From NCBI RefSeq assembly GCF_009914755.1, contig NC_060938.1: a DNA stretch of 64,000 nucleotides; one strand, 5' to 3'. Shown one piece after another: positions 1 to 60,149 of the stretch (positions are counted from its first letter, which is position 1; each line of letters begins with the position of its first letter). The DNA is from the human T2T-CHM13v2.0 reference genome, Homo sapiens. The position numbers were made by a program, and so were the translations under genes. Below the pieces are notes generated by a model. That model made no database searches. It was given only the letters and a program-made list of their open reading frames with translations, and had not been told where the DNA came from.

Positions 1-3000
1 GAATGGAATGGAATAGAGTGGAATGGAATGGAGTGGAGTGGAGTGGAATGGAGTGCAATGGAGTGAAATGGAGTGGAGTGGAATCGAGTGGAGTGGAATG
101 GAATGGAGTGGAATGGAATGGAGAGGAAATGAATGAAATGGAATGCAACACAGTGGAATGAAGTGGAGTAGAGTGCAATGGAGTTGAGTGGAGTGGATAG
201 GAATGCAGTGCAATGGAATGGAATGGAATGTAAGGGAGTAGAGTGGAGGGGATTGGAGTGGAGTGGAGTAGAGTGGAATGGAGTGGAATGGCATGGAGTG
301 GAGTGGAATGGAATGGAATGGAATGAAATTGAAAGGAATGGAAAGGAATGGAATGCAACGGAATGGAACAGAATGGAGTACAGTGGAGAGGAGTTGAGTG
401 GAGTGGATCGGAGTGCAGTGGCATGGAATGGAAAGGAATGGAATGGAATGGAATGGAATGGAACAGAATAGAAAGGAATGGGATGGAGTGGAGTGGAATG
501 GAAAGGAGTGGAGTGGAATGTAATGGAATGTAATGGAATGGAAAGGAATGGGATGGAGTGGAGTGGAATGGAAAGGAGTGGAGTGGAATGTAATGGAGTG
601 AAGTGGAATGGAATGGAGTGGAGTGGAATGGAATGGAGTGGAGTGGAATGGAGAGGAGTGCAGTGGAATGGTATGGATTGGAATGGAAAGGAAGGGAGTG
701 GAGTGCAGTGGAGTGGATTGGAGGGCAGCAGAATTGAATGGAGTGGAGTGGAGTAGAGTGGAGTGGAGTGGAGTTGAGTGGGGTGCATCGGAGTGCAGTG
801 GAATGGAATGGGAAGGAGTGGAGTTTAGTGGAGTGGAGTGGAGAGGAATTTAATGGAAAGGAGTGGACTGGAATTGTTTGGAGTGGATAGGAATGGAATG
901 GAACATAAAGGAATGGAATGGAATGGAAAGGAATGGAACGGAATGGAGTGGAGTGCAGTGGAGTTGAGTCGAGTCAATCTGAGTGCAGTGGAAAGGAAAG
1001 GAATGGAATAGAATGGAATGGAATGGAACGGAACGGAACGGAACGGAACGGAATGGAATGGAATGGAGTGAAGTGGGATGGAAGGGAGTGCAGGAGAGTA
1101 GAGTGAAGTGGAGTGCAGTGGAGTGGAGTGGAATGGAATGGAATGGAGTTGAATGGAATGGAAAAGAATGGTGAAATGCATTGTGAGCTATGATTTTGCC
1201 ACTGCACTACAGTCTGGGTGACAAAGTGAGATCCAATTGAAATAAAGTAATCGAATGGAATGCAGTAGAATGGAAGGGAATGGATTGGAGTGGAGTGGAG
1301 CAGAGTGGAGTGGAGTGGAGTGCAGTGGACTGGAGTGGAACGAGGGGAATGGAATGGAGTAGAGTGGAATGGAATGGAAAGGAACAGAATGGAATGGAAG
1401 GTAAAGGAATGAAGTGGAGTGGAGAGTAGTGCAGTTGAGTGGAGTGGATCGGAGTGCAGTGGAATGGAATGGAATGAAATGGCATGGAATGGAGTGGAAT
1501 GGAATGGAGTGGAGTGGAGTAGAGTGGTGTGGAGTGGAGTGGAATGGAATGGAATGGAATGGAATGCAATGGAATGGTGAAACGTAATGTGAGCTAAAAT
1601 TGTGCCACTGCAATACAGTCTGGGTGACAGAGTGACATCCAATCGAAATAAAGCAATGGAATTGAATGGAGTAAAGTGGAAAGGAATGAGGTGGAGTGGA
1701 ATGGAATGCAGTGGAACGGAGTGGAATGGAGTGTACTGGGATGGAGTAAAGTGGAATTGAGCAGAACGGAAAGAAATGCAATAGAGACGAATGGAATGGA
1801 ATGGAATGAAGTGGAATGCAGCATAATGGAATGGAGTGGAGTAGAATGGAGAGGAATGGAATGGAATGGAATGGAATGGAAATGAGTGGAATGGAATGGA
1901 ACGCAAATCAGTGGAATGGAATGGAGTGGAGTGGAGAGGAGTGGAATGGAGTGAAGTGGAATGGGGTGGAATGGAGTAGAATGTAGTGGAATGGAGTGAA
2001 ATGGAGTGGAATGTAATGGAGTGGACTGGCATGGAATGGAGTGGAATGGAACAGAATGGTACAGAATGAAACGGAATGGAATGGAACAGAGTGGAGTGGA
2101 GTGGAGTTGAGAGGAGTGGATCGGAGTGCAGTGGAACGGAATGGAATGGAATGGAGTGGAGTGGAGTGGAGTAATGGAATGGAGTAAAATGGAGTGGAGT
2201 GGAAGGGAGTGCAGTGGAATGGAGTAGAATGCCATGGAACGGAATGGAGTGGAGTGGAATGGAGTGGAATGGAATGGAATGGAATTGAATGGAATGAAAT
2301 AGAATGGAATGGAAGGGAAAGGAGTGGAGTGAAGTGGAGTTGAGTGGAGTGGACTGGCGTGTAGTGGAATGGAATGGAATGGAAGTTAATGAAATGGAAT
2401 AGAGTGGAGTGGAATGGAATGGAGTGGTATGGAGTGGAGTGGAGTGGAATGGAGTGTAGTGGAATGGAGTGGAGTGGAATGGAGTGGAAAGAATTAAATG
2501 GAATAGAGAGGAATGGAATGGAATAGAATGGAATGACGAGGAATATAGTATAATGGAGTGGAGTGGAGTGGAATGGAGTTTAGTGGAATGGAGTGGAATG
2601 GAATGGAAAGGAATGCAATTGAGTGGAATGGAATGGAGTGGAGTGGAGTGGAGAGGAGTGGAGGGGAGTGCAGTGGAATGGAGTGCTATGGAGTGAAATG
2701 GAGTGGAGTGGAGTGGAATGGAATAGAGTGGAATGGAATGAAACGGTACAGAACGGAAAGGAACAGAATGGAAAGGAGTGGAGTTGAGTGGAGTGTAGTG
2801 GAGTAGAGGGGAGTGGATTGGAATGCAGTGGAATGCAATGGAATGGAATGGAAAGGAGTGGAGTGGAGTGCATTGGAGTGGAGTGGAGGGGAATGGAGTA
2901 GAATGGAGTGGAATGGAGTGGAGTGGAGAGGAATGGAGTGGAATGGAATGGAAGGAATGGAATGGAACCAAATGGAAGGGAATGGAGTGGAGTGGAGTAG

Positions 3001-6000
3001 ATTTGAGTGGAGTGGAATGGAGTGCAGTGGAATGGATTGGAATGGAATAGAATGGAATGGAATGGAATGGAGTGGAGTGGAGTGGAGAGGGAGGGAATAG
3101 AGTGGAGTAGAGTGGAGTGGACAGGAATGGAGTGGAGTGGAATGGAATGGAATGGAATGGAATGGAGTGGAATGAAAAGGAATGGAGTGGAGTGGAATGG
3201 GCTGCAATGGAATGGAATGGAGTGGAGTGGAATGGAATGGAGTGGAGTGGAATGGAATTGAGTGAAGTGGAATGGAAGGGAGTGGATTGGAGTGGAATTG
3301 AGTGGAGTGGAATGGAATGTAGTGGAGTGGAATGGAGTGAAGTGCAACGGAATATAATGGAGTGGAATGGAATAGAATGGAGTGGAGTGGAGTGGAGTGG
3401 AATTGATTGGAGTGCAGTGGAATGGAATGGAATGGAATGAGGGGAGTGGAGTGGAATGAATGGAGAGGAACGAAATGCAGTACAGTGGAATGGAATGGAA
3501 TGGAACGAAATGGAATGGAATAGATTGGAGTGTAATGGAACGGAATGGAAAGGAGTGGAGGGGAGTGGAGTGGAGTGGAGTTGAGTGGAGTGTATCAGAG
3601 TGCAGTGGACTGGAATGGAATGGAATGAAATGGAAAGGAGTGGAGTGGAATGAAATTTAATAGAACGAAGTGGATTGGAGTGGAGTGGAGTGGAGTGGAG
3701 TACAGTGGAATGGAGTGGAGTGTAGTACAATGGGATGGAGTGGAGTGTAGTACAATGGAATTGAGTGGACTGTAGTACAATGGAATGGAGTGGAGTGCAA
3801 TGGAATTGAATGGAATGGAGTGGAGTGGACTGAAATGGAATCCAGTGGAGTGATGTGGAGTGGAGTGGAACGGAGTGGAGAGGAATGGCATGGAATGGAA
3901 TGGCATGGAATGGAATGGAATGGAATAGAATGGAATGGAATGGAGTGGAATGGAATGGAATGGAATAGAATGGAATGGAATGGAGTGGAATGGAATGGAG
4001 TGGAGTGGAATGGAATGGCATGGAAAGGAATGGAATGGAATGGAGTGGAGTGGAATGGAGTGGAGTGAAGTGGAATTGAATGGAGTGGAGTAAAATGGAG
4101 TGGAGTGAAGTGGAATGGAAGGGAGTGGATTGAAATGGAGGGAAGTGGAGTGTAATGGAATGGAGTGTAATGGAATGGAGTGGAGTGGATTGGAGTGCAG
4201 TGGAGTGGATCGGAGTGCTGTGGAATGGAATGGAACGGAATGGAATGGAATGGAGTGGAGTGCAGTGGAGTAGAGTGGAGTGGATTGGAATGGAGTGGAA
4301 AGGAATGAAATGGAACGGAATGGAATGGAACGGAATGGAAAACAGTGGACTGGAGTGAGGTTGAGAGGAATGGATTGGAGTGCAGTGGACTGGAATGGAA
4401 AGGAAAGTAACGGAGTGGAGTGGAATGGAATGGAGTGGAGTGGAGTGAAGCGGAGGGGAGTTGAGTGGAGTCGAACGGAATGAAATGGAGTGGAGTGGAG
4501 TGGATTGGAGTGTAATGGAATGGAATGGAATAGAATGGAATGAAATGGAACGGAATGGAATGGTGAAATGAAATGTGAGCTAAAATTCTGTCACTGCACT
4601 CCAGTCTGGGTCACAGAGTGAGATCCAGTCGAAATAAAGGAATGGAATACAATGGAGTAGAATTTCATGGAAGGGAGAAGAGTGGAATGGAATGGAGTGG
4701 AATAGAGTGGAATAGAGTGTAATGGAGTGGAATGGAATTGAATGGAGTGGAATGGAATTGAGTGGAGTGGAATGGAATGGTATGGAAGGGAGAGGAATGG
4801 AATGGAAAGGAGGAGAATGTAGTGTAGTGGAATGGAAAGGAGTGGAAGGAGTGGAGTGAAATGGAGTGGAATGGAGTGGCATTGAAAGGAATGGAATGAA
4901 ATGGAATGGAATGGAGTGGAGTGGAATGGAATGGAGTGGAATGGAGTGGATGGAAGTGGAATGGAGTGAAATGGAGTGGGTGGACTTCAGTGGAGTGGAA
5001 TGGAATGGAATGCAGTGGAGTAGAATGGAATGGAATGGAATGGAATGGAATGGAGTGGAGTGGAGAGGAATGGAATGGAGTGGAGTAGTGTGGAGTGGAG
5101 TGGTGTGGAGTGTATAGGAGTGCTGTGGACTGGAATGTAATGGAATGGAATGAAATCGAATGGAATGAAGAGGAGTGGAATGGAATTTAATGGAATGGAG
5201 TGGAGTAGAGGGGAGTGGAGTAAAATGGAATGGTGTGGAGTGGAATGGAATGGAATGGAATGGAATGGAATGAAGTGGAGTGGAGTGGATTGGAGTGGAG
5301 TGGAATGGATTGGAATGGAGAGGATTGAAATGGAATGCAATGTAATGGAAAGCAGTGGCATAGAGTGAAATGGAATGGATTGGAGTGCAGTGGAGTGGAG
5401 TGGAATGGAGTGGAGTGCAGCAGATTGGAGTGCAGTGGAGTGGAGTGGAACGGAGTGGAATGGAAAGGATTGGAATGGAATGAAATGGAATGGTGAAATG
5501 AAACGTGAGCTAAGATTGTGCCACTGCACTCCAGTATGGGTGACAAAGTGAGATACAGTCTAAATAAAGGAATGGAACGGAATGGAGTAAAATGCAATGG
5601 AATGGAGTGATGTGGAATGTAACGGAGAGGAAAGGAGTGGAGTAGAGTGGATTAGAGTGGAGTGGAATGGAATGGAGTGGAGTAGAACGGAACAGAACAG
5701 AACGGAATGGAACAAAGTGGAATAGAGTGGAGTGGAGTTGATTGGAGTGGATCGGACTGCAGTGGAATGTAATGGAATGTAATGGAAAGGTATGGAGTTG
5801 AGAGGAGTGGAGTTTAGTGAAGTGGAGTGGCGTTTAGTGGAGTGGAGTGGAATGGAGTGGAGTGGAAAGGAATGGAAGTGAGAGGAATGGAATGGAGTGT
5901 AGTGCAATGCAGTAGAGTGGAATGGACTGACATGGAGTGGAATGGAATGGAGTTTAGTGGAGTGGAGTGGAGTGGAATGGAGTGGAATTAGAGTGGAGTG

Positions 6001-9000
6001 GAATGGAGTGGAATGGAGAGGAATGGAATGGAATCGAGAGGAATGGAGTGGAGTGGAATGGAGTGGAATGGAATGTACTGAAATGGAGTGGAATGGAATG
6101 GAGTTTAGTGGAGTGGAGTGCAGTGGAATGGAGTGAAATGGAGTGGAGTGGAGTGCAGTGGAGTGTAATGGAGTTGAATGGAATGGAACAGAATGGAATG
6201 GAATGGAATGGAGTGTAGTGGAGTTGAGTGGATTGGAATTGAGTGGAGTGTGTCGCAGTACAGTGGAATGGAATGGAATGGAATGGAATGGAATGGAGTG
6301 TAGTGGAGTGAAGTTTAATGTGGTGGAGTGGAATGGAGTGTAGTAGAGTGGAGTGGAGAGGACTGGAGTGGAATGTGAAGGTACGGAGTGGAATGGAGTG
6401 GAGTGGAGTGGAATGGAATGGAATGGAAAGGAATGCAATGCAATGGAAAGGAAAGGAATGGAACGGAACAGAATGGAGTTGAGTGGAGTGCAGTGGAGTT
6501 GAGTGGAGTGGAGTAGAGTGGAGTGGTGTAGAGTGGACTGGAGTGGAATGGAATGAACTGGAATGGAATGGACTGGAACGGTGAAATGAAATGTGAACTA
6601 TGATTGTGCCACTGCATTCCTGTCTGAGTGACAGAGTGAGACCCAGTCGAAGTAAGGAATGGAATGGAATGGAGTAGAATGGAATGTAATGGAGTGGAGT
6701 GCAGTGGAAGGGAATGGTGGGGCATGGAGTGGAGTGGAGTGGAATGGAGTGGAGTGGAATGGATTGCTGTATAACGGAGTGGAATGGAGTGGAGTGGAAT
6801 GGACTGCATTGGAATGGAATGGTGTGGAATGGAATGGAAAGGTACGGAACAGAACAGAATGGAACAGAGTGGAGTGGAGTTGTGTGGAGTGGATGGGAGT
6901 GCAGCGGAATGAAATGGTATGGAATGGAATGGGGTGGAGTGGAGTGGAGTGGAGTGGAGTGAAGTGGAGTAGAATAGAGTGGAATGGTATGGAGGGGAGT
7001 GGAAAGGAATGGAACAGAATGGAACGGAATGGAATGGAACAGAATTGAATGGAACAGAACTGAACGTAGTGGAGTGGAGTGGATTGGACCGGAGTGCAGT
7101 GGAATGGAATGGAATGGAATGGAAAGGAATGGAATGCAATGGAAAGGAATGCAATGCAAGGCAATGGAATGGAATGGAATGGAATGGAATGGAATGGAAT
7201 GGAACGGAATGGAATGGAATGGAATTGGATGAAATGGAATGGAATGGAACAGAATTGAGTGGAGTGGAGAGTAGTGGAGTGGAGTGGAATGGAATGGAAT
7301 GGAAAAGAATGGAATGGAATGGTGAAATGTAGTGTATGCTAAGATTGTGCCACTGCACTCCAGTCTGGGTGACAGAGTGAGATCCGATTGAAATAAGGGA
7401 ATGGAATGGAATAAAGTAGAATGGAATGGAATGGAATAAAATGGAATTGGATGGATTGGAATGGAGTGGAGTGGATTGGAATGGTGTGTAATGGAGTGGA
7501 ATGGAATGGAATGGAGTGGAATGTAATGGAGAGGAATGGAAGAGAGAGGAGTGGAGAGGAACGGATTGAGGTGGAATGGAGTGGATTGGAATGCAGTGGA
7601 ATGGAGTGGAATGGAATGGAGTGGAGTCAAGTTGAGTGGAGTGGAGTGGAATGGAATGGTGTAGAATGGAATGGAACGGAACAGAACGGAATAGAATGGA
7701 ACGGAATGGAATGGAATGGTTGGAGTGGAGTGGAATTGGGTGGAGTGGATCGGACTGCAGTGGAATGGAATGGAATGGAATGGAATGGAATGGAATGGAA
7801 TGGAATGGAATGAAGTGGAGTGGAGTTAAGTGGAGTGGAGTGGAATGGAGTTGACTGGAGTGGAGCAGAGTGGAGTGGAGTGGAGTGGAATGGACTGGAA
7901 TGGAGTGGAATCGAATGGAGTAGAGTGGAATAGAATGAAATGGAATGGAATGCCATGGAATGGAAAGGAGTGGAATGGAAAGAAATGGAGTGGAGTGGAG
8001 TGGAATGGAATTGAGGGGAATGGAGAGAAGTGGAGTGGAGTGGAATGGAGTGGAGTGGAATAGAATGGTTGGGTATAGAATGGAACGCAACCGAATGGAA
8101 GGGAACGGAATTGAGCTTAGTGCACTGGAGTGGAGTGGAGTTGAGTGGAGTGGATCGGAGTGCAGTGGAATGGAATGCAATGGAATGGAATGGAGTGCAA
8201 TAGATTGGAATGGAATGGAATGCTGAAATGAAATGTGAGCTAAGATATTGCCACTGCTCTCCAGTCTGGATGACAGAGTGAGATCCAGTCGAAATAAATG
8301 AATGGAATGAAATGGAGTAGAAACGAAAGGAATGTAGTGGATTGGATTGAAGTGGAATGGATTGGAATGGAGTGGAATGGAGTGGAATGGAATGGAATGG
8401 AGTGCAATGGAATGGAGTGCAATGGAATGGAATGGAATGGACTGGAGTGGAATGGAATGGAGTGGAATGGAGTGGAGTGGAGTGGAGTGGAGAGGACTGG
8501 AGTGTAGTGGAGTGGATTGGAGTGGAGTGGAGCGGACTGGAGTGTAATGGAGTGGAATGGAGTGAAATGGAGAAGAGTGGAAAGGAGTGGAGTGGAATGG
8601 AATGGAGTGGAATGGTATGGAAAGTAAAGGACTGGAAAGGAATGGAATGGAATAGAATGGAAAGGAGTGGTTTGCAGTGGAATGGAATGGAATGGATTGC
8701 AGTGGAGTGTAGTGGAGTGGAGTGGAATGGAGTGGAATGGAATTTGAGTAGAGTGGAATGGAATGGAATGGAAAGGAATAGTATGGAATGGAATACAATG
8801 GAATGGAATGGAATGGAATGAAATGGAATGGAATGGGACGGAGTGGAGCAGAGTGGAGTGGAGTGGTGTTGATTAGAATGGATTGGATTACCGTAGAATG
8901 GAATGGAATGGAATGGAATGGAATAGAAAGGTGTGCACAGGAATGGAGAGGAGTTGAGTGGAGTGGAGTGGAATGGAAAGGAATGGAATGGAATGAAATG

Positions 9001-16499: not shown

Positions 16500-16760
16500 G
16501 AGTGGAGTCGAGTGGAGTGGATTGGAGTGCAGTGGAAAGGAATAGAACACAATGCAATGAAGTCGACTAGAGTGCAGTGGAATGGAATGGAATGGAACAG
16601 AATGGAGTGGAGTCGAGTGGAGTGGAGTGCAGTGGAAAGGAATGGAACACAATGCAATGAAGTCGACTAGAGTGCAGTGGAATGGAATGGAATGGAACAG
16701 AATGGAGTGGAGTCGAGTGGAGTGGAGTGCAGTGGAAAGGAATGGAACACAATGCAATGG
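16500..16760 (+). repeat. 100-bp tandem repeat (~2.5 copies)
   Basis: AACACAATGCAATG at 16546, 16646 and 16746; AGTCGACTAG at 16561 and 16661. Confidence 0.9.
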
Positions 16761-47476: not shown

Positions 47477-48389
<913 letters not shown>

Positions 48390-49192: not shown

Positions 49193-52100
49193 GGTGAAAT
49201 GAAATGTGAGCTGAGTTTGTGCCACTGCACTCCAGCCTGGGTGACAGAGTGAGATCTTGTCAAAATATAGGAAAGTAATGTTATGGAGTGTACTGGAATT
49301 GAATAGAATGGAATGTAGTGGAGTGGAGTGGAGTAGAGTTCAGTGGAGTGGAGTGGAGTAGAGTTCAGTGGAATGGAGTGGAATGCAATGTGATTCAATG
49401 GAAAGGATTGGAGGGGAGTAGAGTGCAGTTTAATGGAGTGGAATGGAATGGGATGGAATGCAGAGGAGAGGAGAAAAGTGGAGTGGAATGGAATGGAGTG
49501 GAGTGGAGTTGAGTGGACTGGAGTGGAATGGAGTGGAATGGAATGGAAAGGTGAAATGAGATGTGAGCTCAGATTTTGCCACTGTGCTCCAGCGTGTGTG
49601 AGACAGTGAGACCCTGTCGAAAGAAAGGGATGGAATGGAAAGGTGTGTAATGGAAAGGAACGGAATTGAATGGAATGGAGTGGAGTGGAATGGAGTGGAA
49701 TGGAATGGGATGGACTGGAATGGAGTGTAGTGGTGTGGAGTGGACAGAAGTGGTAGGGAGTTTAATGGAATGGAGTGGAGTGGTGTGGAGTGGACTGGAG
49801 TGGAAGGGAGTTGAATTTAATGGGATGGAATGGAATGGAGTGGAGGGGAGTGGAGTGGAGTGGAAAAAAATGGAATAGAATGGAATGGAATGGAATGGAA
49901 TGGAATGGAAAGGAATGGAATGGAATGGAATGGTGAAATGAAATGTGAACTAAAATTGTGTTACTGCACTCCAGCCTGTGTGACAGAGTGAGATCCTGTC
50001 GAAAGAAAGGAATGGAATGGAATGGAGTACAATGAAATGGAATGGAATGGAATAGGGTGGAGTGGCGTGGAGTGGAATGGATTGGAATGTAATGTAATGG
50101 AATGACAATGGAGTGGAGTGGCGTGGTTTGGAATGGAGTGGAATGGAGTGGAATGGAATGGAGTGGAGTGGAGTGGAGTGGAATGGAATGGAATGGAATA
50201 GAATGGAGTGGAATGTAATGGAGTGGAGTTTAGTGGATTGGAGTGGAGTCGATAGGAGTGGAATGGAGTGAAATAGAGTGGAGTTGACTGGAGTGGAGTG
50301 GAATGGAAAGTAACGGAAAGAACTGGAATGGAACTGAATGAAACGGAGTGAGTGGAGTGGAATGGAGTTGAGTGGAGATGATCAGAGTGTAGTTGCATGG
50401 AATGGAATGGAATGGAATGGAGTGGAGTAGAGTGGAGTTTAGTTGATTGTAGTAGAATGGAGTGGAGTGAAGTGGAGAAGACTGCAGTGGAGTTGAGTGG
50501 AATAGAATGAAATTGAGTGGAATGGAATGGAGTGGAGAGGAATGGAATGGAATGGATCGGAATGCAATGGAATGGAATGGATCAGAACGGAATGGAGTAG
50601 AGTGGAGTGGAGTGGAGTGGAATGGAAAGACATGGAATGGAATGGAATGCAATGGAATGGAAAGGGGAAATGAAATGTGAGCTAAGATTGTGCCACTGCA
50701 CTCCTGTCTGGGTGACAGAGGAAGATCCAGTCGAAATAATGGAATGGAAAGGAACGAAGTAGAACGGAATGGAATGGAGTGGACTGGAATGGAATGGAGT
50801 GGATTGGAGTAGGGTGGAGTGGAATGGAGTGGAGTGGAATGGAGTGGAGAAGAATGGAGTGGAATGGAGTGGAGTGGAATGGAAAGGAATGGAGTGGAAA
50901 TGAATGAAATGGAGTGGAATGGATTGGAGTGGAGTGGAATGGACTGCAGTGGAATGAAGTGTTGTGGAATGGAGTGGAATGGAGTGGAATGGACGGGAAT
51001 GGAATTGAATGGAATGGGATGAAGTGCATTGGAATGTAATGGAGTGGAGTGTAGTGGGTTGGAGTGCGTTGGAGTGGAATGGAGGGCAGTAGAGTGAAAT
51101 GGAGTGCAGTGGAAAGGAGGGGAGTGGAAAGGATTGGAGTGGAATGGAAGAGAATGGAACAAAATGGAACGGAATGGAATGGAGTGGAGTGGAGTTGAGT
51201 GGAGTGGATCGGAATGCATTGGAATGGAATGGAATGAAATGGAACGGAGTGGAGTGTAGAGTCGTGGAGTGGAGAGGAGTGGAGTGGAATGGAGTGGAGT
51301 GAAGTGGAGTGGAATGCAATGGAATGGAATAGAATGAAATGGAATGGAATGGTGAAGTTAAATGTGAGCTAAGATTGTGCCACTGCACTCCAGTATGTGT
51401 GACAGAGTAAGATCCAGTCGAAATAAAGGAATGGAACGAAATGGAGTATAATGGAATGGAATGGAGTGGAGTGGAATGGAATGGAGTGGAATGAAATGGA
51501 GTGGAGTGGAATGGATTGGAGTGGAATGGAGTGGAGTGGAATAGAGTGGAATGGAGTGGAATGGAGTGAAATGGAATGCAGTGGAGTGGAAGGAATGGAG
51601 TGGAATGGAGTGGAGTGGAGTCAAATGGAGTGGAGTGCTCTGAGTCTAATGGAGTGGAGTGGAATGGAATGGAGTGGAATGGAATGGAATGGTATGGACT
51701 GGAATGAAATGGAATGGAGTGGAATACAATCGAGTGGAGTGGAGTGGATTGGAGTGGAATGGAGTGGAGTTGAATGGAGTCGAATGGAGTGAAATGGAGT
51801 GGAGTGGAGTGGATGAAATGGAGTAGGAATGGAATGGAATGGAATGGAATGGAATGGAATGGAATGGAATGGAACGGAATGGTGAAATGAAATGTGAGCT
51901 GAGATTGTGCCACTAAACTCCAGCTTTGGTGACAGAGTGAGATCCTGTTGAAAGAAAGGAAAGTAATGTTATGGAGTGTACTGGAATTGAATGGAATGGA
52001 ATGTAGTGGAGTGGAGTGGAGTGGAGCAGAAAGGAGTGGAATGCAATGTGATGCAATGGAAAGGATCGGAGTGGAGTGGAGTGCAGTGGTGTTGAGTGGA

Positions 52101-55100
52101 ATGGAATGGGATGGAATGGAGAGGAGAGGAGAAAAGTGGAGTGAAGTGGAATGGAATGGAATGAAGTGGAGTGGAGTTGAGTGGACTAGAGTGGAATGGA
52201 GTGTAATGGAATGGAAAGGTGAAATGAAATGTGAGCTCAGATTGTGCCACTGTACTCCAGCCTGTGTGAGACAGTGAGACCCTGTCGAAAGAAAGGTATG
52301 GAATGGAATGGAGTGGAATGGAAAGGAATTGAATTGAATGGAGAGGAGTGGGGTGGAGTGGAGTGGAGTGGAGTGGAATGGAATGGGATGGAAAGGAATG
52401 TAATGGTTTGGAGTGGAGTGGCGTTGAGTGATGTGGAATGGAGTGGAATGTAAAGGGATGGATTGCAATGGAGAGGACTGGAGTGGAGTGGAATGGAATG
52501 GAATGGAGTGGAGTGGAATAGAGTGGAGTGCACTGGAGTGCAATGGAATGGAACGGAATGGAATGGAATGGTGAAATTAAATGTGAGCTGTGATTGTGCC
52601 ACTGCACTCCAGCCTGGGTGACACAGTGAGATGCTGACAAAAGAAAGAAATGGAATGGAATGGAGTGCAATGAAATGGAACGGAATGGAGACGAGTGGAG
52701 TGGAGTGCAGTAGAATGGAGAGGAATGAAATGGATTGGAATGGGATGGAATTGAATGGAATGTAGTGGAGTGGAGTGGACTGGAATTGAAAGGAATGAAC
52801 TCGAATGTAATGGAATGGAGTGGAGTGGAGAGGAGTAGAGTGGAGTGGAATGGAATGGTTTCTAGTGGAATTGAATGGAGAGGAGGGTAGTGGAGTGAAG
52901 TATAGTGGAATGGAATGTAATTGAATGGGATTGAATGGAATGGAGTTGAGTGGTGTGGAGTGTACTGGAGTGCAAGGGAGTTGAATGGAATGGATTAGAG
53001 TGGTGTGGAGTGGAATGGAGAGGAAGAGAGTTGAATGGAACGGGATGGAATGGAATGGAGTGGAGTGGAGTGGAATAGAATGGAATGGAATGGAAATGAA
53101 TGGAATAGAATGGAATGGTGAAATGAAATGTGAACTGCAATTGTGTTACTGCACTCCAGCCTGGGTGACAGAGTGAGATCCTGTCAAAGAAATGAATAAA
53201 ATGGAATGGATTAGAATGGAACGGAATGGAATGGAATGGAATGGAATGGAATGGAATGGAATAGAATGGAGTGGAGTGGAGTGGAGTGGAATGGAGTGGA
53301 ATGTAATGGGATGGAATGACATGGAGTGGAGTGGTATAGAGTGGAATGGAGTGGAGTGGAGTGGAATGTAATGGAATGTAATGGAGTTGAATGTATATAG
53401 GGGAGTGGAGTGGAATGGAATGTAATGAAATGGAATGGATTGGAATGCAGTGGAATGTAATGGTGAAACTAAATGTGAGCTGAGATTGTGCCACTGCACT
53501 CCAACCTGGGAGAGAGAGTGAGATCCTGTCAAAAGAAAGGAATGGAACGGAATGGAGTGCAATGGAATTGAATGGAGTGGAATGGAGTGGAGTGGAGTGG
53601 AGTGGAGTGGACTAAAGTGGAGTGGAGTGGAGGGGAATGGAATGGTATGGAATGGATGGAATGGAATGGAATGGAGTGGAGAGGAATGGAGTGGAATGGA
53701 ATGGGATTGAATGGAGTGAATTGGAGTGGAGTGGAGTGGAGTGGAATAGAATGGAGTGGAATGGAATTTAATGGAATGGAATGGAAAGGAAAGGAATGGA
53801 ATGGAATGGTGAAATGTAATGTGAACTGAATCTTTGTCACTGCTCTCCAGCCTGGGTGACAGAGTGAGATCCTCTCAAAACAAAGAAATGGAATTGATTG
53901 GAGTATAACGGAATGTAATGGAATGCAGTAGAGTGAAATGGAGTGGAGTTGAGTGGAATGGAGTCTAATGGAACCGGATGGAATGGAGTGGAGTGGTGTG
54001 GAGTGCAGTGGAATGGAATTGAATGGAATGGAGTGGAATGCAATGGAATGGAATACAGTGGAAGGGATTGGTGAAATGAAATGTCAGCTGGGATTTTGCC
54101 ACTGTACTCCAGCCTGGGAGACAGGGTGAGATCCTGTGGAAAGAAAGGAATGGAACGGAATGGAGTGTAATGGAATGGAATGGAATGGAATGTAGTGGAA
54201 TGGAATGGAATGGAGTGTAATGGAATGGAATGGAATGTGGTGGAATGGAATGGAGTGGCATAGAAAGGGATAGAATGGAATGGAGTGCAGTGGTTTGGAG
54301 TGGACTGAAGTGGAAGGGAGTTGAATGGAATGGAGTGCAGTGGTGTGGAATAGACAGGAGTGGAAGGGAGTTGAGTGGAATGGGATGGAATGGAATGGAA
54401 TGGAGTGGAGTGAAGTGGGGTGGAATAGAATGGAATGGAATGGAATGGAATGGAATGGAATGGAATGGAATGGAATGGAATGGAATGGTGAAATGAAATG
54501 TGAACTGAAATTGTGTTGCTGCACTCCAGCCTGGGTGACAGAGTGAGATCCTGTCAAAAGAAAGGAATGGAATGGAATGGAGTAGAATGGAATGGAATGG
54601 AATGGAATGGAATGGAGTGGAGTGGAGTGGAGTGGAATGGAGTGGAATGTAATGGGATGGAATGACATGGAGTGGAGTGGCATAGAGTGGAATGGAGTGG
54701 AGTGGAGTAGAATGGAATACAGTGGAATGGATATAGTGGTGTGGAGTGGAATGGAATGCAGTGGAATGGAATGGAATGGAAGGGAATGGAATGGAATGCA
54801 GAAGAGTGGAGTGGAGTGGAATGGAATGGAATGGAATGGAATGGAATGGAAAGGAATGCAATGTAATGGAATGTAATGGAATGGTGAAATGAAATGTGAA
54901 CTGAGATTGTGCCACTGTACTCCATCCTGGGTGACAGAGTGAGATCCTGTCAAAAGAAAGGAATGGAATGGAAAGGAGTGTAGTGGAATGGAATGGAGTG
55001 GAGTGAAGTGGAGTGGATTGGCGTGAATGGAATGGGATGGAGTGGAATGGAATGGAGTGGATAGGAGTGGAGTGGAGTTGAGTGGAGTGGATTGGAGTGG

Positions 55101-58100
55101 AATGGAGTGGAATGGAATGGGATGGAATGGAAAGGAGTGGATTGGAGTGGTGTGGAATGGAGTGGAATGGAATGGGATGGAATGGAATGGAGTGCAATGG
55201 AGTGAAGTGGAGTGAAGTGGAATGGAATGGAATGGAATTTAAAATAATTCAATGGAATGAAAAGGAATGGATTGCTATGGTGAAATGAAATGTGAGCTGA
55301 GACTGTCCCACTGTACTCCATCCTGGGTGACAGAGTGAGATCCTGTCTTAAGAAAGGAAAGGAATGGAATGGATTGGAAAATAATGGAGAGGAATGGAAT
55401 GTAGTGGAGTGGGTGGAGTGGAGTGGAGTGGACTGGAGTGGAGTAAAGTGGAGTGGAGTGGAATAGAATGGGATGGAATGGAATGGAATGAAGTGGAGTG
55501 GAGTGGAGTCGACTGGAATGCAGTGAAGTGGAATGGAGTGGAATGGAAAACAATGGAATGGACTCGTGTGTAGTGGAGTGGAGTGGAATGGAGTGTAGTG
55601 GAATGCAATGGAATGGAATGGAATAGAATGCGATGGAATGCAATGGAATAAAATGGTGAAATGAAATGTGAGCTGAAATTGTGCCATGGCACTCCAGCCG
55701 GGTTGTGACAGTGAGATCCTGTCAAAAGAAAGGAAAGGAGTGGAAAGGAGTGGAATGGAATAGAATGGAGTGGAGTGCAGTAAAGTGGAGTGGAATGGAA
55801 TGGGATGGAGTGGAATGGAGTGGAGTGTACAGGAGTGGACTGGATTGGAGTAAAGTGCAGTGAAGTGGAGGGGAGTGGAGGGGAATGGAGTGGAATAGAA
55901 TGGGATGGATTGGAATGGAATGGAATGGAGGTTAGTGGAGTGGAGTTGAGTGGAGTGCACTGGAGTGGAATGGAATGGAATGGAATGGAATGGAATGGAA
56001 TGGAATGGAATGGAATGGAGCCGAGTGGAGTGGAGTGTATTGGAGTGGAATGGAGTGGAGTGGAATTGAATAGAATGGAGTGGAGTTAAATGGAGTGAAG
56101 TGGAGTGGAGTGGAATGGAATAGAATGGAATGGAATGAAATGGAATGGAATGGAATTGAACGGAATGGAAAGGAAAGGAATGGAATGGAATGGAATGCAA
56201 TGGAATGGAATGGAGTGGAATGCAATGGAATGAAATGGAATAGAATGGTGAAATGAAATATGAGCTGAGATTGTGCCACAGCACTCCAATCTGGGTGTGA
56301 CAGTGAGATCCTGTCGAAAGAAAGGAATGGAATGGAAGGGAATGGAATGGAATGGAGTGGAGTGGAGTTGATGGGAGTGGAATAGAGTGGAATTGAGTGG
56401 GATGGAGTGGAATGAAGTGGAGTGGAATGGAGTGGAATTGAATGGGATGAAATGGAGTGGAGTGGAGTGGAATGGAATAGGATGGAACAGAATGGAGTGC
56501 ATTGCAGTGGAGTGGAGAGGAGTGGAATGGAATGGAACGGAGTGGAGTGGACTGGAGGGGAGTAGAATGGAATGGAATAGAATGGAATGGACTCGTGAAA
56601 TGAAATATGAACTGAAATTGTGCCACTGCACTCCAGCCTGGGTAACAGAGTGAGATCCTCTCAAAGAAAGGAATGGAATCGAATGGAGTGGATTGGAATG
56701 GAGTGGAATGGAGTGTAGTGGAGTTGAGTGGAGTGCACTGGAGTGGAATGGAGTGGAATGGAATGGTGAAATGAAATGTGAGATGAGATTGTGCTACTGC
56801 ACTCCAGCTTGTGTCACAGAGTGAGATCCTGTCAAAAGAAGGGAATGGATTGCAGTGAAGTGGAATCAAAAGAAATGGAATGGAATGGAATGGAATGGAA
56901 TGGAATGGAATGGAATGGAATGGAATGGGATGGGATGGGATGGGATGGAATGGAATGGGATGGGATGGAATGGACTGGAATGGGATGGGATGGAATGGAA
57001 TGGACTGAAATGGTATGGAATGGAACGGAGTGGAGTGGACTGGAGTGGTGTGGTATGGAGTGGAATCTAATGGGACAGAATGTAATGGAATGGAGTGGAG
57101 TGGAGTGCAGTGGAGTGGAATGGAGTGGAATGGAATGGGATGGAGTGTAATGATGCGGAGTGGACAGGAGTGGAGTGGAGTGGACTGGAGTGGAGTGGAA
57201 TGGAGTGGAATGTAAAGTGATGCTATAGAAATGATCGGAGTGGAGTGGAGTGGAGTCGAATGGAATGGAATGGAATAAGATGGAATGGAGAGGAGAGGAG
57301 AGGATTGGAGTGGAGTGGAATGGAATGGAATGGAGTGGAGTGGAGTTGAGTGGACTGGAGTGGAATGGAGTGTAATGGAATGGAAAGGTGAAATGAAATG
57401 TGAGCTCAGATTGTGCCACTGTACTCCAGCCTGTGTGACAGAGTGAGACCCTGTCAAAAGAAAGTGATGGAATAGAATGGAGTGGAATGGAAAGGAATGG
57501 AATTGAATGGAGTGGAGTGTAGTGGAATGGAATGGAGTGGAATGGAGTGGAGTGTAGTGGAATGGAATGGAGTGGAATGGAGTGGATTGGAGTGGAATCG
57601 AGTGGAATGGAATGGGATGGAAAGGAATGTAATGGTTTGGAATGGAGTGGAGTGATGTGGAATGGAGTGGAATATAATGGGATGGATTGGAATGGAGTGG
57701 AGTGGAGTGGAGTGGAATGGAATGGAATGGTATGGAATGGAATGGAGAGGAATGGAATGGAATGGAATGGAGTGGAGTAGAATGGAATGGAGTGGAGTGC
57801 ACTGGAATGCAATGGAATGGAATGGAATGCTGAAATTAAATGTGAGCTGTGATTGTGGCACTGCACTCCCGTCTGGGTAGCAGAGTGAGATGCTGTCGAA
57901 AGAAAGGAATGCAATGGAATGGAGTTTAATGGAATGGAACGGAATGGAGATGAGTGATGTGGAGTGGAGTGCAGTTGAGTGGAGTGGAGAGGAATGGAAT
58001 GGAGTTGAATGGGATGGGATGGAATTGAATGGAATGTTAGCGGAGTGGAGTGGACAGGAATGGAATGGAATGGACTGGAATGTAATGGAATGGAATGGCG

Positions 58101-60149
58101 TGGAGTGGAGTGGAGTGGAGTGGATTGGAGTTAAATAGAACGGAATTGAATGCAATGGAATGGTGAAATGAAATGTGATGTGAGATTGTGCCACTGCACT
58201 CCAGCCTCAGTGACAGAGTGAGACTCTTTCGAAGAAAATGAATGGAATGGAATGGAGTGGAATGGAATGGAATGGAGTGGAGAGTAGTGGAGTGGAGTGA
58301 AGTGGAGTGGAGAGGAATGGAATAGTTTGGAGTGGAAATGAATGGAGTGGAGGGTAGTGGAGTGAAATGGATTGGAAAGGAGTGGAATGGAATGGGTTGG
58401 AATGGAGTGGAGTGGTGTGGAGCGGACTGGAGTGGATGGGAGTTGAATGGAATGGAGTAGAGTGGTGTGGAGTGGACTGGAGTGGAAGGGAGTTGAATGG
58501 AATGGGATGGAATGGAATGGCGTGGAGTGGAGTGGAGTTTAATAGAATGGGATGGAATGGAATGGAATGGAATGGAATGGTGAAATGAAATGTGAACTGA
58601 AATTGTGTTACTGCACTCCACCCTGGGTGACAGAGTGAGATCCTGTCAAAAGAAAGGAATGGAATGGAATGGAGTGGAATGGAATGGAGTAGAATTGAAT
58701 GGAATTGAATGGAGTGGATTGGAGTGGAGTTTAGTGGAGTGGAGTGGAATGCTGTGGAATGGAATTGGGTGGAATGGAATGGGATGTAATGGAATGGAAT
58801 GGAATGGAATGGAGTGGAATGGAATGGAATGGAGTGGAGTAGAGTTGATTAGAGTGGAGTGGAGTGGAGTGGAATGGAGTGGAATACAATGGAATTCAAT
58901 GGAATGGAGTGGAGTGGCTTGGAGTGTAGAAGGGTGGACTGGAATGAAGTGGAATGGAACAGAATGGAATGGAATTGAATGGAATGGAGTGGAATGGAAT
59001 GGAATGGAATGGAATGGAGTGGAATGGAATGGAATGGAATGGAATGGAATGGAATGGAATGGAATGAAATGGTGAAATGAAATGTGAGCTGAGATAGTGC
59101 CGCTGCACTCCAGCCTGGGTGACAGAGTGAGATCCTGTTGAAAGAAAGGAATGGAATGGAATGGAATGGAGTTGAATGGAGTGGAGTGAAGTGGAGTGGA
59201 GTGGAGAGGAATGGAGTGGAATGTGATGGGATGGATTGGAGTGGAATGGAGTGGAATGGACTGGACTGAAGTGGAGTGGATTGGAGTGGAATGGAGTGGA
59301 ATGGAGTGGATGGAATGGAATGAAATGGATTGGAATGGAGTTGAGTGGATTGAAGTGGAGTGTAGTGTAGTGGAGTGGAGTGGAGTGCAGTGGAATGTTA
59401 TGGAATGGAAATGAATGGAATGGAATGCAATGCAATGTAATGGTGAAGTGAAATGTCTCCTGAGATTGCTCCACTGCACTCCAGCCTGGGTTACAGAGTG
59501 ATATCCTATCGAAAGAAAGGAATGGAATGGAATGGAGTGGTCTGGAATGGAATGGAATGGAAGGGAGTGTAGTGTAGTGTAGTGTAGTGTAGTGTAGTGT
59601 AGTGTAGTGTAGTGTAGTGTAGTGTACTGTAGTGAAGTGTAGTGTAGTGTAGTGTAGTGCAGTGTAGTGGAGTGGAGTGGAGTTTAATGCAATGGGATGG
59701 AATGGAAGGGAGTGGAGTGGAGTGGAATGCAATGTAGTGAAAGGGAGTGTGATGGATTGGAATGGAGTGGAGTGGAGTGGAATGGAATGGAATGGAGTGG
59801 AATGGAATTGAATGGAATGCAATGGAATGGAATGTCGTGGAATGGATTGGAATGGAATGGTGAAATGAAATGTGAGCTGAGATTGTGCCACTTCACTCCA
59901 GGCTGGTTGACAGGGTGAGATAACTGTCAAAAGAAAGGAGTGGAGTGGAGTGGAGTTGAATGCAATGGGATGGAATGGAATGGAGTGGAGTGGAGTCGAG
60001 TAGAGTGGTTTGGAGTGGAGTGGAATGGAATAGAATGGAAAGGAATGGAATGCAATGGAATGGAATGGAAAGGTGAAATGTAATGTGAGCTGAGATTGTG
60101 CCACTGCATTACAGCCTGGGTTACAGAGTGAGATCCTGTCGAAAGAAAT
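49193..60149 (+). repeat. Dense zone of Alu-3'-end-derived cassettes, mostly type B (27 copies)
   Basis: Type B consensus GGTGAAATGAAATGTGAGCTGAGATTGTGCCACTGCACTCCAGCCTGGGTGACAGAGTGAGATCCTGTC(A/G)AAAGAAA. Approximate starts: 49193, 49550, 49932, 50664 (type A), 51351 (type A), 51881, 52218, 52570, 53117, 53462, 53808, 54070, 54487, 54883, 55279, 55655, 56247, 56594, 56765, 57387, 57829, 58162, 58579, 59071, 59442, 59859, 60072. Confidence 0.93.
59566..59665 (+). repeat. (AGTGT)n microsatellite, 20 units
   Basis: 12 perfect AGTGT units (59566-59625), then 8 more units of which 3 carry single-base variants. Confidence 0.95.

What the first reader, a model, noticed from the sequence alone, without database searches (positions are those of the whole stretch)
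1170..60149. Composite satellite: ~58 co-oriented copies of one truncated Alu 3' end amplified inside a pentamer array
Seen: every cassette has the same 5' junction (GGAAT-GGTGAAATGAAAT-GTGAGC), the same ~55-nt Alu 3' portion and the same short A-rich end running into GGAAT. All lie on one strand and none has its own TSD. Inference: these are not independent retrotranspositions. One ancient Alu fragment became part of the satellite unit and was spread by tandem or unequal-exchange amplification, while the pentamer tracts between cassettes grew or shrank (about 80 bp to 7.4 kb). The cassette spans 77 bp between pentamer frames (4562 to 4639), so each shifts the phase by 2; the observed 157 and 202 bp duplication periods (77+5n) agree. 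The cassettes give unique anchors for reconstructing the history of otherwise unalignable DNA. Alu-related interruptions in GGAAT/GGAGT satellite III may already be partly described.
Basis: partly seen in the sequence, partly recalled or inferred. Interest (0 to 1): 0.8.

Follow-up and report, generated by a model that had tools for sequence, protein, structure and literature searches.

The report
Alu-tail minisatellite unit inside satellite III
This chromosome 14 short-arm satellite carries 58 copies of one small Alu-derived piece, which is a unit of an Alu-tail minisatellite that survives intact at one spot on chromosome 15 and has been copied along with one class of human satellite III on at least 15 chromosomes.

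Summary
The window has 58 same-strand cassettes, 57 intact and one split by a later full-length Alu. 50 of 56 measured are exactly 77 nt, and 50 of 57 shift the pentamer frame by +2. They descend from one ancestor and were not inserted separately.

It is the head-to-tail joint of an Alu-tail minisatellite. At chr15:28.64 Mb a full-length old Alu is followed by about 24 units of [(GAAAT)n + last 57 nt of that Alu], with the same joint and the same 3' end. The window's type-B consensus equals that Alu's 57-nt end, 57 of 57. A 93.5% paralogue at chr15:25.88 Mb has the same Alu with a plain A tail, intact CpGs and no array.

The exact 19-nt joint occurs 737 times in the genome. Cassettes were seen on 15 chromosomes, always in GGAGT-rich HSat3. 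They were absent from 7 blind samples of the large 9q12, Yq12 and 15p arrays.

That HSat3 is intermingled with Alu fragments is already in print (Rhie et al.). The minisatellite origin and the chr15 locus were not found in nine literature searches. The direction chr15 to HSat3 is likely but unproven. Interest is moderate to high.

The parts
1..60276 (+). HSat3 array of GGAAT/GGAGT pentamers. It runs off the left end of the window and abuts alpha satellite on the right.
   Evidence: TRF reports period 5 over 40050-59860. 64% of the window is covered by pairs of pentamers within 1 mismatch of GGAAT. The GGAGT share is 0.41-0.48 in every 4-kb bin.
1170..48739 (+). Domain A: 31 cassettes of the derived type A, with long irregular spacing (157-7438 bp) and 53 landmark motifs.
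49193..60148 (+). Domain B: 25 ancestral-like type B cassettes at 171-788 bp spacing, with two type A copies (50664, 51351) among them.
1170..1246 (+). cassette, type A
1576..1652 (+). cassette, type A
Identical copies lie on chr13 and chr21.
5492..5568 (+). cassette, type A
6580..6655 (+). cassette, type A (76 nt)
7321..7397 (+). cassette, type A
8222..8298 (+). cassette, type A
9005..9081 (+). cassette, type A
9977..10053 (+). cassette, type A
11084..11160 (+). cassette, type A
11596..11672 (+). cassette, type A
13470..13546 (+). cassette, type A
15536..15612 (+). cassette, type A
16088..16163 (+). cassette, type A (76 nt)
17959..18035 (+). cassette, type A
22007..22083 (+). cassette, type A
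22684..22760 (+). cassette, type A
23421..23497 (+). cassette, type A
25822..25898 (+). cassette, type A. It is followed by the 7.4-kb stretch without cassettes.
33260..33336 (+). cassette, type A
34755..34831 (+). cassette, type A
39580..39656 (+). cassette, type A
40406..40482 (+). cassette, type A
41553..41629 (+). cassette, type A; first copy of the 157-bp tandem duplication
41710..41786 (+). cassette, type A; second copy of the 157-bp tandem duplication
42326..42402 (+). cassette, type A
43223..43299 (+). cassette, type A; first copy of the 202-bp tandem duplication
43425..43501 (+). cassette, type A; second copy of the 202-bp tandem duplication
44846..44922 (+). cassette, type A
47441..47476 (+). 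5' part of a type A cassette split by an Alu insertion. Its last 14 nt (47463-47476) are TSD copy 1.
47477..47774 (+). Full-length Alu with an A16 tail: an independent retrotransposition into the cassette.
   Evidence: Sequence. Rfam Metazoa_SRP 63.4 bits, E 1.3e-13.
47775..47830 (+). 3' part of the split cassette. Its first 14 nt (47775-47788) are TSD copy 2.
48665..48739 (+). cassette, type A (75 nt)
49193..49269 (+). cassette, type B
49550..49626 (+). cassette, type B
49932..50008 (+). cassette, type B
50664..50740 (+). cassette, type A, inside domain B
51351..51427 (+). cassette, type A, inside domain B; preceded by the only landmark motif found in domain B (51192)
51881..51957 (+). cassette, type B
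52218..52294 (+). cassette, type B
52570..52646 (+). cassette, type B
53117..53192 (+). cassette, type B (76 nt)
53462..53538 (+). cassette, type B
53808..53884 (+). cassette, type B
54070..54146 (+). cassette, type B
54487..54563 (+). cassette, type B
54883..54959 (+). cassette, type B
55279..55355 (+). cassette, type B
55655..55731 (+). cassette, type B
56247..56323 (+). cassette, type B
56594..56669 (+). cassette, type B (76 nt)
56765..56841 (+). cassette, type B
57387..57463 (+). cassette, type B
57829..57905 (+). cassette, type B
58162..58238 (+). cassette, type B
58579..58655 (+). cassette, type B
59071..59147 (+). cassette, type B
59442..59518 (+). cassette, type B, with a diverged 5' part; missed by the junction pattern
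59859..59936 (+). cassette, type B (78 nt)
60072..60148 (+). cassette, type B; the last one before the alpha satellite
8138..8173 (+). Exact copy of the second recurrent landmark (36 nt). It is one of 54 copies at up to 3 mismatches, all on the + strand, and 53 of them lie before 47.3 kb.
   Evidence: expected by chance: 0.00. The distance from a landmark to the next cassette is 4 mod 5 in 18 of 22 cases. Landmark-to-landmark distance is 0 mod 5 in 26 of 32 cases.
60277..64000 (.). Alpha satellite adjoining the HSat3 array; not part of the composite.
   Evidence: TRF periods 167 and 336. It is also the last non-pentamer run.

Best explanation
The cassette is one whole unit of a minisatellite that grew from the end of a single Alu.

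Proposed history:
1. An old Alu had its A tail turn into a (GAAAT)n pentamer repeat.
2. Its last 57 nt plus that tail were then duplicated head to tail. This created the tell-tale joint ...GAAATGAAAT|GTGAGC....
3. One or a few such units came to lie in a GGAAT/GGAGT satellite III array.
4. They were then copied passively with it. Unequal exchange in steps of five bases changed the spacers. Small tandem duplications (157 bp, 202 bp) and large duplications carried the arrays to many chromosomes.
5. Within the window, the ancestral-like form (type B) sits next to the alpha satellite. A derived form (type A, three extra substitutions) fills the rest.

The cassette probably has no function of its own: it lacks the Alu promoter boxes and has lost all its CpGs.

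What is shown and what is inferred:
- Shown: single origin, common joint, genome-wide spread, and kinship with the chr15:28.64 Mb array.
- Inferred: that the chr15 lineage is the source (I put this at about 0.6), the way the unit entered the satellite, and the lack of function.
For: Single origin within the window. There are 58 copies, all on the + strand. 50 of 56 are exactly 77 nt, and 50 of 57 shift the frame by +2.

The chr15 locus (L006 = chr15:28635001-28645000). A full-length Alu in otherwise non-satellite DNA is followed by 24 more units. Each unit is (GAAAT)n plus the Alu's last 57 nt. The units share the window's joint and its 3' end CCTGTC[A/G]AAAGAAA. The locus holds 214 GAAAT against 11 GGAAT.

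Consensus comparison. The 57-nt core consensus of window type B (23 copies), chr22p (12), chr13p (12) and chr20 (13) equals the chr15 Alu's end at every position. The Y copy set (8) differs at one position.

The paralogue at chr15:25.88 Mb. It is 93.5% identical over 2800 columns. It holds the same Alu with the same 32-bp internal deletion, but with a plain A tail and no array. It keeps CCGAG, TGCGCC, AGCGAG and GACTCC. The four CpG-to-TpG changes and the 1-nt loss that all cassettes share therefore arose in the 28.64-Mb lineage.

Uniqueness in the genome. The Alu-body-plus-core 64-mer gave 167 hits at up to 3 mismatches, and the only exact one is the chr15 Alu. The cassette-to-(GAAAT)n 3' joint gave 18 hits at up to 3 mismatches, 14 of them in that one array. 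The other four are HSat3-type copies.

Spread. There are 737 exact copies of the 19-nt joint, against 0 for the reversed control. Cassettes were seen on chromosomes 1, 3, 4, 7, 9, 10, 13, 14, 15, 16, 17, 20, 21, 22 and Y.

Polarity of the two types. Type B matches Alus better than type A: 49/57 against 46/57 to the window's Alu, and 9.2% against 14.8% distance from the chr15 core. Type B states dominate in all 15 other HSat3 loci sampled, except chr13:13.18 Mb (the window's paralogue); chr20:31.69 Mb is mixed.

Pentamer-step change. Landmark-to-cassette distances are 4 mod 5 in 18 of 22 cases. Landmark-to-landmark distances are 0 mod 5 in 26 of 32 cases.
Against: The direction of transfer is not proven.
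- The chr15 Alu keeps 3 CpGs in its body, but none of the 5 in the 57-nt core. This would also fit a core that was overwritten from heavily methylated satellite DNA.
- HSat3 copies lie 9-15% from the chr15 core, while the two chr15 paralogues differ by only 6.5% in total. So either these arrays mutate roughly three times faster than the chr15 flanks, or the order of events is wrong.
- The chr15 paralogy stops exactly in the Alu tail. The array therefore sits at a rearrangement boundary, and the downstream flank cannot serve as a control.
- Variant units (ATGAGC, GTGAAC, CCAGGCTGG, CATAA tail) are shared between the chr15 array and HSat3 arrays. A single-unit, single-event transfer is too simple.
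- By my reading of the aligned consensus rows, at least one indel is needed to bring the 3' side pentamer frames of the chr15 units and the HSat3 cassettes into register.
- No ape genome could be searched.

The literature disagrees in part. Rhie et al. (passages seen) call the HSat3-associated pieces AluY fragments derived from PAR1. They report no local homogenisation and no clustering by chromosome.

Sampling caveat. The 15 cassette-bearing HSat3 loci I sampled outside the window were chosen from hit lists, so cassette presence there is by construction.
Confidence: 0.75

Rival explanations
1. Reverse direction. The joint and the CpG-free core arose somewhere in satellite DNA. A multi-unit piece of cassette-bearing HSat3 then recombined with the homologous end of a resident Alu at chr15:28.64 Mb. 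Its spacers later drifted and were homogenised to GAAAT.
For: The core has 0 of 5 CpGs left, while the same Alu's body keeps 3. The array sits exactly where the chr15 paralogy ends. Several unit variants are shared between the chr15 array and HSat3 arrays. chr15 units are young-looking: 3.5% from the founder and 6.1% pairwise.
Against: It requires about 200 pentamers to change from GGAAT/GGAGT to GAAAT (214 against 11 and 9 in L006). The first unit is seamless with a full Alu body and still shows an A6 remnant before the first GAAAT. A tail-to-GTGAGC joint can only be made where an Alu end and its own tail lie together, so another lost Alu locus would have to be assumed.
Confidence: 0.17
2. 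The cassettes are fragments of AluY elements that came from PAR1 and seeded HSat3 arrays, without local homogenisation. This is the reading printed by Rhie et al.
For: Passages of the preprint 10.1101/2022.12.01.518724. I could not see its Figure 5d or its supplementary tables. They may concern partly different fragments.
Against: Every cassette set examined shares the (GAAAT)n joint and the derived states of the chr15 Alu. That Alu and its paralogue carry a 32-bp internal deletion and differ from each other by 6.5%, so the lineage is old. No PAR1 place appears in the complete hit list or in the listed parts. In the window the copies do cluster locally: there are two positional types and two near-identical adjacent pairs. 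A 57-nt piece is too short for a reliable subfamily call.
Confidence: 0.05
3. Independent retrotranspositions of 5'-truncated Alus into the satellite.
For: None found. TSDs cannot be scored in pentamer flanks.
Against: All 58 copies share one breakpoint, one strand and one length. There is no poly-A. Derived substitutions are shared. The one real insertion in the window looks different: full length, A16 tail and a 14-bp TSD.
Confidence: 0.01

Closest known systems
Human satellite III (HSat3), GGAAT/GGAGT type of the acrocentric short arms (pTRS-47 / pTRS-63 clones of Choo and colleagues; HSat3A2/A4 of Altemose 2014)
   Same: It is a pentamer array with nearly equal GGAAT and GGAGT. It lies on chr14p next to alpha satellite. 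The only hits to published subfamily 24-mers are sparse ones to A2 and A4, and the CAACCCGA[AG]T 10-mer is absent.
   Different: Altemose 2014 describes HSat3 as pentamer-derived only. That paper held no word starting 'Alu' (listing). The Choo papers were not held, so I cannot say whether they noticed the cassette. Their description as 'GGAAT or GGAGT' is recalled by me and is also given in PMC7767330.
HSat3-associated Alu fragments (Rhie et al., The complete sequence of a human Y chromosome, preprint 10.1101/2022.12.01.518724)
   Same: The paper states that some HSat3 arrays on the Y and the acrocentrics are intermingled with Alu fragments that cluster together in a tree. This is the same object as in the window.
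   Different: The printed reading is AluY from PAR1, with no local homogenisation. Here I find one fixed joint that is a minisatellite head-to-tail junction, an old Alu on chr15 as nearest relative, local subtypes, and restriction to GGAGT-rich arrays.
HSat1B / DYZ2, a composite satellite with an Alu subunit
   Same: An Alu-derived piece is a fixed part of a satellite repeat and is amplified with it (passages).
   Different: HSat1B has a regular unit of about 2.5 kb with a long Alu part and AT-rich DNA. Here a 57-nt Alu end sits in irregular pentamer spacers of 80 bp to 7.4 kb.
Minisatellites derived from Alu 3' ends and tails
   Same: The chr15 array fits this kind: tandem units made of the Alu 3' end plus tail repeat, attached to the parent Alu.
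   Different: I know of no report, and found none in nine searches, that such a unit became part of a major satellite family.
WaluSat (Hoyt et al. preprint 10.1101/2021.07.12.451456)
   Same: A short Alu-linked seed from a chromosome arm reached the acrocentric short arms by segmental duplication and expanded there.
   Different: WaluSat is a 64-nt non-Alu monomer transduced by an AluSx3. Here the seed is the Alu end itself plus its tail repeat.
Disease-linked pentanucleotide repeats that arise in Alu tails
   Same: Pentamer repeats are born from Alu A tails. [quoted passage not shown]
   Different: Those are intronic microsatellites. Here the tail repeat and the Alu end together formed a minisatellite that is related to a megabase-scale satellite class.

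Membership tests
HSat3 (human satellite III) | Long arrays derived from the pentamer GGAAT (CATTC) | tested here: met
   TRF reports period 5 with 3900 copies over 40050-59860. 64% of the window lies in pentamer pairs within 1 mismatch of GGAAT.
HSat3 (human satellite III) | Pericentromeric or acrocentric short-arm location | tested here: met
   The window is C14:6200001-6264000 (and the hub's note). Alpha satellite adjoins at 60277.
HSat3 subfamily A2/A4 (Altemose 2014) | Presence of subfamily-specific 24-mers | tested here: inconclusive
   Only the single most common 24-mer per subfamily (Table 1) was used. None of the 8 tested matches the window exactly. At up to 1 mismatch the window has 3 A2 hits and 1 A4 hit among the 11 tested. 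The controls worked: Yq12 hit A6, 9q12 hit B5 and 15p hit A5. The full 24-mer libraries are in supplements that I did not open.
HSat3 B subfamilies / classical satellite 3 | Interspersed 10-mer CAACCCGA[AG]T (motif recalled by me) | tested here: not met
   There are 0 copies in the window and in all 15 other cassette-bearing HSat3 loci, against 38-40 per 10 kb in the three 9q12 samples.
Alu-derived minisatellite | Head-to-tail units made of an Alu 3' end plus its tail repeat, with a tail-to-internal-Alu joint | tested here: met
   The joint GAAATGAAAT|GTGAGC is present in the window cassettes (55 matches) and in the chr15 units.
Alu-derived minisatellite | Array attached to its full-length parent Alu | tested here: not met
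   This is met only at chr15:28.64 Mb. In the window the units are separated by HSat3 pentamers and no parent Alu is present. The window is therefore a satellite that contains such units, not itself an Alu minisatellite.
Composite satellite of the HSat1B kind | Regular higher-order unit with one Alu part per unit | tested here: not met
   Spacing runs from 157 to 7438 bp with no dominant period. A candidate 2.7-kb block repeat is no better than controls: 85.1% against 79.9-84.6%.
Independent Alu retrotransposon insertions | Own TSD, poly-A tail, varied breakpoints and both strands | tested here: not met
   All cassettes share one breakpoint and one strand. Only the Alu at 47477-47774 has a TSD and an A16 tail.

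The most novel reading that the evidence does not exclude
The whole GGAGT-rich, cassette-bearing class of satellite III, pentamers included, descends from the Alu-tail minisatellite. On this reading the (GAAAT)n tail repeat itself mutated to GGAAT and then GGAGT and expanded. A sizeable part of 'HSat3' on at least 15 chromosomes would then be the overgrown tail of one Alu on 15q. The cassette-free giant arrays (9q12, Yq12, 15p) would be either a separate lineage or descendants that lost the cassette.
Probability: 0.15. Interest if true: 0.85.

Novelty: new variant of a known kind. Interest (0 to 1): 0.6.

Why it matters
- Alignability. Satellite III is the largest satellite family in the human genome, and its arrays are nearly unalignable. 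A 77-nt marker about every 0.2-1 kb makes one whole class of these arrays alignable, within and between chromosomes.
- A possible root. If the chr15 locus is the source lineage, the marker comes with an outgroup (the paralogous Alu) and an upper age bound. Mutation rates and the order of spread of acrocentric and pericentromeric arrays could then be measured instead of guessed.
- Robertsonian region. The window's block is shared, inverted, with chr13 and chr21. From my recall of the literature, this is the region implicated in Robertsonian translocations.
- Published source. The results question the printed AluY/PAR1 origin of these fragments.
- Origin of the pentamer satellite. They raise the testable idea that part of a major pentamer satellite began as an Alu tail.

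Tried and rejected
- Rfam on one cassette and on the whole window. No cassette scored; only the full Alu did. The Alu identity therefore rests on alignment to genomic Alus.
- Spacer-to-spacer alignment. The background identity of pentamer spacers is about 83%, so only a few pairs stand out: 49193/51881 at 94% and 48665/51351 at 92.6%.
- The 2.7-kb block repeat these pairs suggested is not clearly above controls. I dropped it.
- Published subfamily 24-mers gave no firm subfamily.
- GGAGT-share profiles around landmarks and cassettes showed no clean block pattern.
Genomic Alus were used instead.
- The papers of Choo 1990 and 1992 and Jackson 1993 were not held.
- Literature: nine searches found the HSat3-Alu link only in Rhie et al. 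None mentions a minisatellite or chr15 origin.
- No ape or monkey genome could be searched.

Full report
THE OBSERVATION

The window from base 1 to 60276 is a pentamer satellite. TRF reports period 5 with about 3900 copies over 40050-59860. 64% of all bases lie in pairs of pentamers within one mismatch of GGAAT. GGAGT makes up 41-48% of the GGAAT plus GGAGT count in every 4-kb bin.

Shuffles gave a mean of 0.94 and a maximum of 3 in 100. BLAST with the example copy (4562-4645) found 60 HSPs, all on the plus strand. Together with the scan for non-pentamer runs, these resolve to 58 cassettes.

Successive starts are 157 to 7438 bp apart. Of 56 intact copies measured on the alignment, 50 are exactly 77 nt, four are 76, one is 75 and one is 78. 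The pentamer frame moves by +2 across 50 of 57 cassettes; the others move by +1 (4), +3 (2) and 0 (1). The 157-bp and 202-bp tandem duplications are real (TRF), with 144/157 and 188/202 identical bases.

IS IT ALU?

Rfam does not see the cassettes. The window does, however, hold a genuine full-length Alu at 47477-47774. It has an A16 tail and a 14-bp target-site duplication (47463-47476 and 47775-47788), and it landed inside one cassette. Rfam scores it as Metazoa_SRP at 63.4 bits.

Aligned to its 3' end, the cassette consensuses match at 49/57 (type B) and 46/57 (type A). As I read the alignment rows printed, most differences lie at the Alu's CpG sites, which read TG in the cassettes. This Alu also shows what an independent insertion looks like. 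The cassettes look nothing like it.

TWO SUBTYPES

Five alignment columns split the copies.
- Type B: 24 of 56 typed, lying at 49.2-60.1 kb next to the alpha satellite. It reads CTGAG / CAGCCTGG / CCTGTC.
- Type A: 32 of 56, lying at 1.1-48.7 kb plus two copies at 50664 and 51351. It reads CTAAG / CAGTCTGG / CCAGTC.

At all three sites type B has the Alu state, so A is derived from B.

Domain A also carries a second landmark, a 36-nt motif with 54 copies at up to 3 mismatches, all on the + strand (0.00 expected by chance). 53 of them lie before 47.3 kb. Eight lie in the 7.4-kb stretch that has no cassette, so that gap is made of units lacking the cassette, not of one overgrown tract.

Distances keep the pentamer frame. 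Landmark to next cassette is 4 mod 5 in 18 of 22 cases. Landmark to landmark is 0 mod 5 in 26 of 32 cases. This is direct evidence that spacers change in steps of five bases.

THE SAME CASSETTE ACROSS THE GENOME

The window's own assembly could be searched. The exact 19-nt joint occurs 737 times (379 forward, 358 reverse; reversed control 0). In the window only 14 of 58 copies carry it exactly. A rough extrapolation from this ratio therefore gives about 3000 cassettes genome-wide.

Cassettes were seen on chromosomes 1, 3, 4, 7, 9, 10, 13, 14, 15, 16, 17, 20, 21, 22 and Y.

In 15 loci of 7-10 kb fetched from these hit lists, cassettes stand in one orientation per locus. One search counts 8-24 per 10 kb in eleven of them; one search counts 14-19 BLAST hits in each of the other four 7-kb loci, a few of them duplicate rows for the same copy. 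All 15 loci are GGAGT-rich.

Seven 10-kb samples were taken blind at round coordinates in the three largest HSat3 arrays: 9q12 (three), Yq12 (two) and 15p (two). They hold no cassette and are GGAGT-poor, with 23-52 GGAGT against 665-1146 GGAAT. An eighth sample, Y:40.0 Mb, was not HSat3.

With the published 24-mers the controls behave as expected: Yq12 hits A6, 9q12 hits B5 and 15p hits A5. The cassette-bearing loci give only sparse A2/A4 hits, no B hits, and none of the 10-mer CAACCCGA[AG]T.

Type B states dominate in the 15 other HSat3 loci, with one exception and one mixed case. Type A states dominate at chr13:13.18 Mb, which is the window's own paralogue, and chr20:31.69 Mb is mixed.

THE CHR15 LOCUS

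A pattern search showed a tight cluster at chr15:28,638,9xx-28,641,6xx, far from any satellite. The fetched locus (L006) reads as follows:
- non-satellite DNA;
- a full-length old Alu (L006 about 3622-3873);
- a remnant A6;
- (GAAAT)n;
- 24 further units, each being the Alu's last 57 nt (GTGAGC...CCTGTC) followed by (GAAAT)n, at about 80-140 bp spacing;
- an old L1-like 3' end.

The locus holds 214 GAAAT, 11 GGAAT and 9 GGAGT.

The unit-to-unit joint is GAAATGA-TGAAATGAAAT|GTGAGC. Two units read GAAATGG-TGAAATGAAAT, which is the window's GGAATGG-TGAAATGAAAT|GTGAGC. The 3' ends CCTGTCGAAAGAAA and CCTGTCAAAAGAAA occur in both places.

The 57-nt core consensus of window type B (23 copies), chr22p (12), chr13p (12) and chr20 (13) is identical to the chr15 Alu's end. 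The Y set (8 copies) differs at one site.

AN OUTGROUP

The upstream flank of the chr15 locus has exactly one other match in the genome, at chr15:25.877 Mb, inverted. The paralogy is 93.5% over 2800 columns.

The paralogue holds the same Alu, with the same 5' flank and the same 32-bp internal deletion. It has a plain A tail, no array, and intact CpGs in the core: CCGAG, TGCGCC, AGCGAG and GACTCC.

The four CpG-to-TpG changes and the one-base loss seen in every cassette set are thus derived states of the 28.64-Mb lineage.

Two further searches point to this one locus. The Alu-body-plus-core 64-mer gave 167 matches at up to 3 mismatches; only the chr15 Alu is exact, two differ at one site and 13 at two. 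The cassette-to-(GAAAT)n joint gave 18 matches, 14 of them in this one array.

WHAT IS SHOWN AND WHAT IS INFERRED

Shown:
- one origin for all cassettes;
- the joint is a minisatellite joint;
- the cassette marks GGAGT-rich HSat3 on many chromosomes;
- its nearest relative outside satellites is the chr15 array.

Inferred: the direction of transfer.

For chr15 to HSat3:
- the seamless full Alu and the A6 remnant;
- such a joint can only form where an Alu end and its own tail lie together;
- the reverse path would need about 200 pentamers to change to GAAAT.

Against it, or at least unexplained:
- the chr15 Alu keeps 3 CpGs in its body but 0 of 5 in the core;
- HSat3 copies are 9.2% (B) to 14.8% (A) from the core, and 16-17% from each other, although the two chr15 paralogues differ by only 6.5% in all. 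This implies a rate about three times higher in the arrays, or a wrong order of events;
- the paralogy ends exactly in the Alu tail;
- several unit variants are shared between the chr15 array and HSat3 arrays, so more than one unit moved or exchange was repeated.

I put the chr15-lineage source at about 0.6, the reverse at about 0.17, and leave the rest to an unseen third locus.

WHAT IS IN PRINT

Nine full-text searches were run.
- Rhie et al. [quoted passage not shown] They say the fragments on the Y and on the acrocentrics cluster together, that there is no evidence of local homogenisation, and that the seeds derived from AluY elements of PAR1. I could not see their Figure 5d or their supplements.
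- Altemose 2014 (passages and Table 1) contains no word starting 'Alu' (listing).
- Altemose 2021 (passages) mentions Alu fragments only for HSat1B.
- Hoyt 2021 (passages) describes WaluSat, a parallel case of an Alu-linked seed expanding on acrocentric arms, but has no HSat3 passage.
- Two reviews and the acrocentric-evolution preprint say nothing on the point.
- The papers on pTRS-47 and pTRS-63 were not held. They may have noted the cassette.

So the existence of Alu fragments in acrocentric HSat3 is known. I did not find in print the fixed minisatellite joint, the restriction to GGAGT-rich arrays, the chr15 relative with its paralogue, or the local subtypes. The local clustering and the old chr15 Alu are at odds with the printed reading.

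VERDICT

The object belongs to a known kind (a composite satellite; HSat3 with Alu fragments), with an origin story that appears new and is testable. Interest is 0.6. The boldest reading still open is that the whole GGAGT-rich HSat3 class is the overgrown tail of one Alu. I put this at 0.15.

Noticed in passing
window 47477-47774 (TSDs 47463-47476 and 47775-47788): A full-length Alu with an A16 tail and a 14-bp TSD is inserted inside a cassette. The same cassette|Alu junction is found once on chr13 (13184754, 99%) and three times on chr21 at 27.65-kb steps (98%). Older copies at 92% lie at chr21:8408762 and chr13:11346995. The insertion therefore predates the spread of this block.
   Followed up: partly
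window 3057-6150: This stretch is 99.3% identical to chr21:10.30 Mb and 99.1% identical to chr13:13.24 Mb, both in inverted orientation. The window therefore lies in the block shared by chromosomes 13, 14 and 21, and it is inverted on 14.
   Followed up: partly
window 60277-64000: Alpha satellite (TRF periods 167 and 336, about 80% matches) starts 128 bp after the last cassette. By recall, a satellite III clone contiguous with alpha satellite on chromosomes 13, 14 and 21 was described by Vissel et al. 1992. I saw only its title, in the reference list.
   Followed up: no
window 181-51227 (exact copy at 8138-8173): A 36-nt landmark, GAGTTGAGTGGAGTGGATCGGAGTGCAGTGGAATGG, recurs 54 times at up to 3 mismatches, all on the + strand and in frame with the cassettes. 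It defines units with and without a cassette.
   Followed up: partly
window 59569-59668: A 100-bp run of (GTAGT)n lies inside domain B.
   Followed up: no
L023 (chr7:57.735 Mb) and L022 (chr16:35.67 Mb): These arrays alternate two cassette variants. One has lost TGAAATGAAATGT, so its junction reads GGAATGG|GAGC, and it carries CCAGGCTGG, a variant also present in 7 units of the chr15 array.
   Followed up: no
L006 1109-3878 against L011 9999-7210: The 93.5% paralogy between chr15:28.64 Mb and chr15:25.88 Mb ends exactly in the Alu tail where the minisatellite begins. The array therefore sits on a duplication or rearrangement boundary.
   Followed up: partly
chr3:95.52 Mb against chr13:5.13 Mb; chr4:49.53 Mb against chr13:10.63 Mb: The lists of exact junction hits show the same spacing pattern at these pairs of places. 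This suggests whole cassette-bearing arrays were copied between pericentromeres and acrocentric arms.
   Followed up: no
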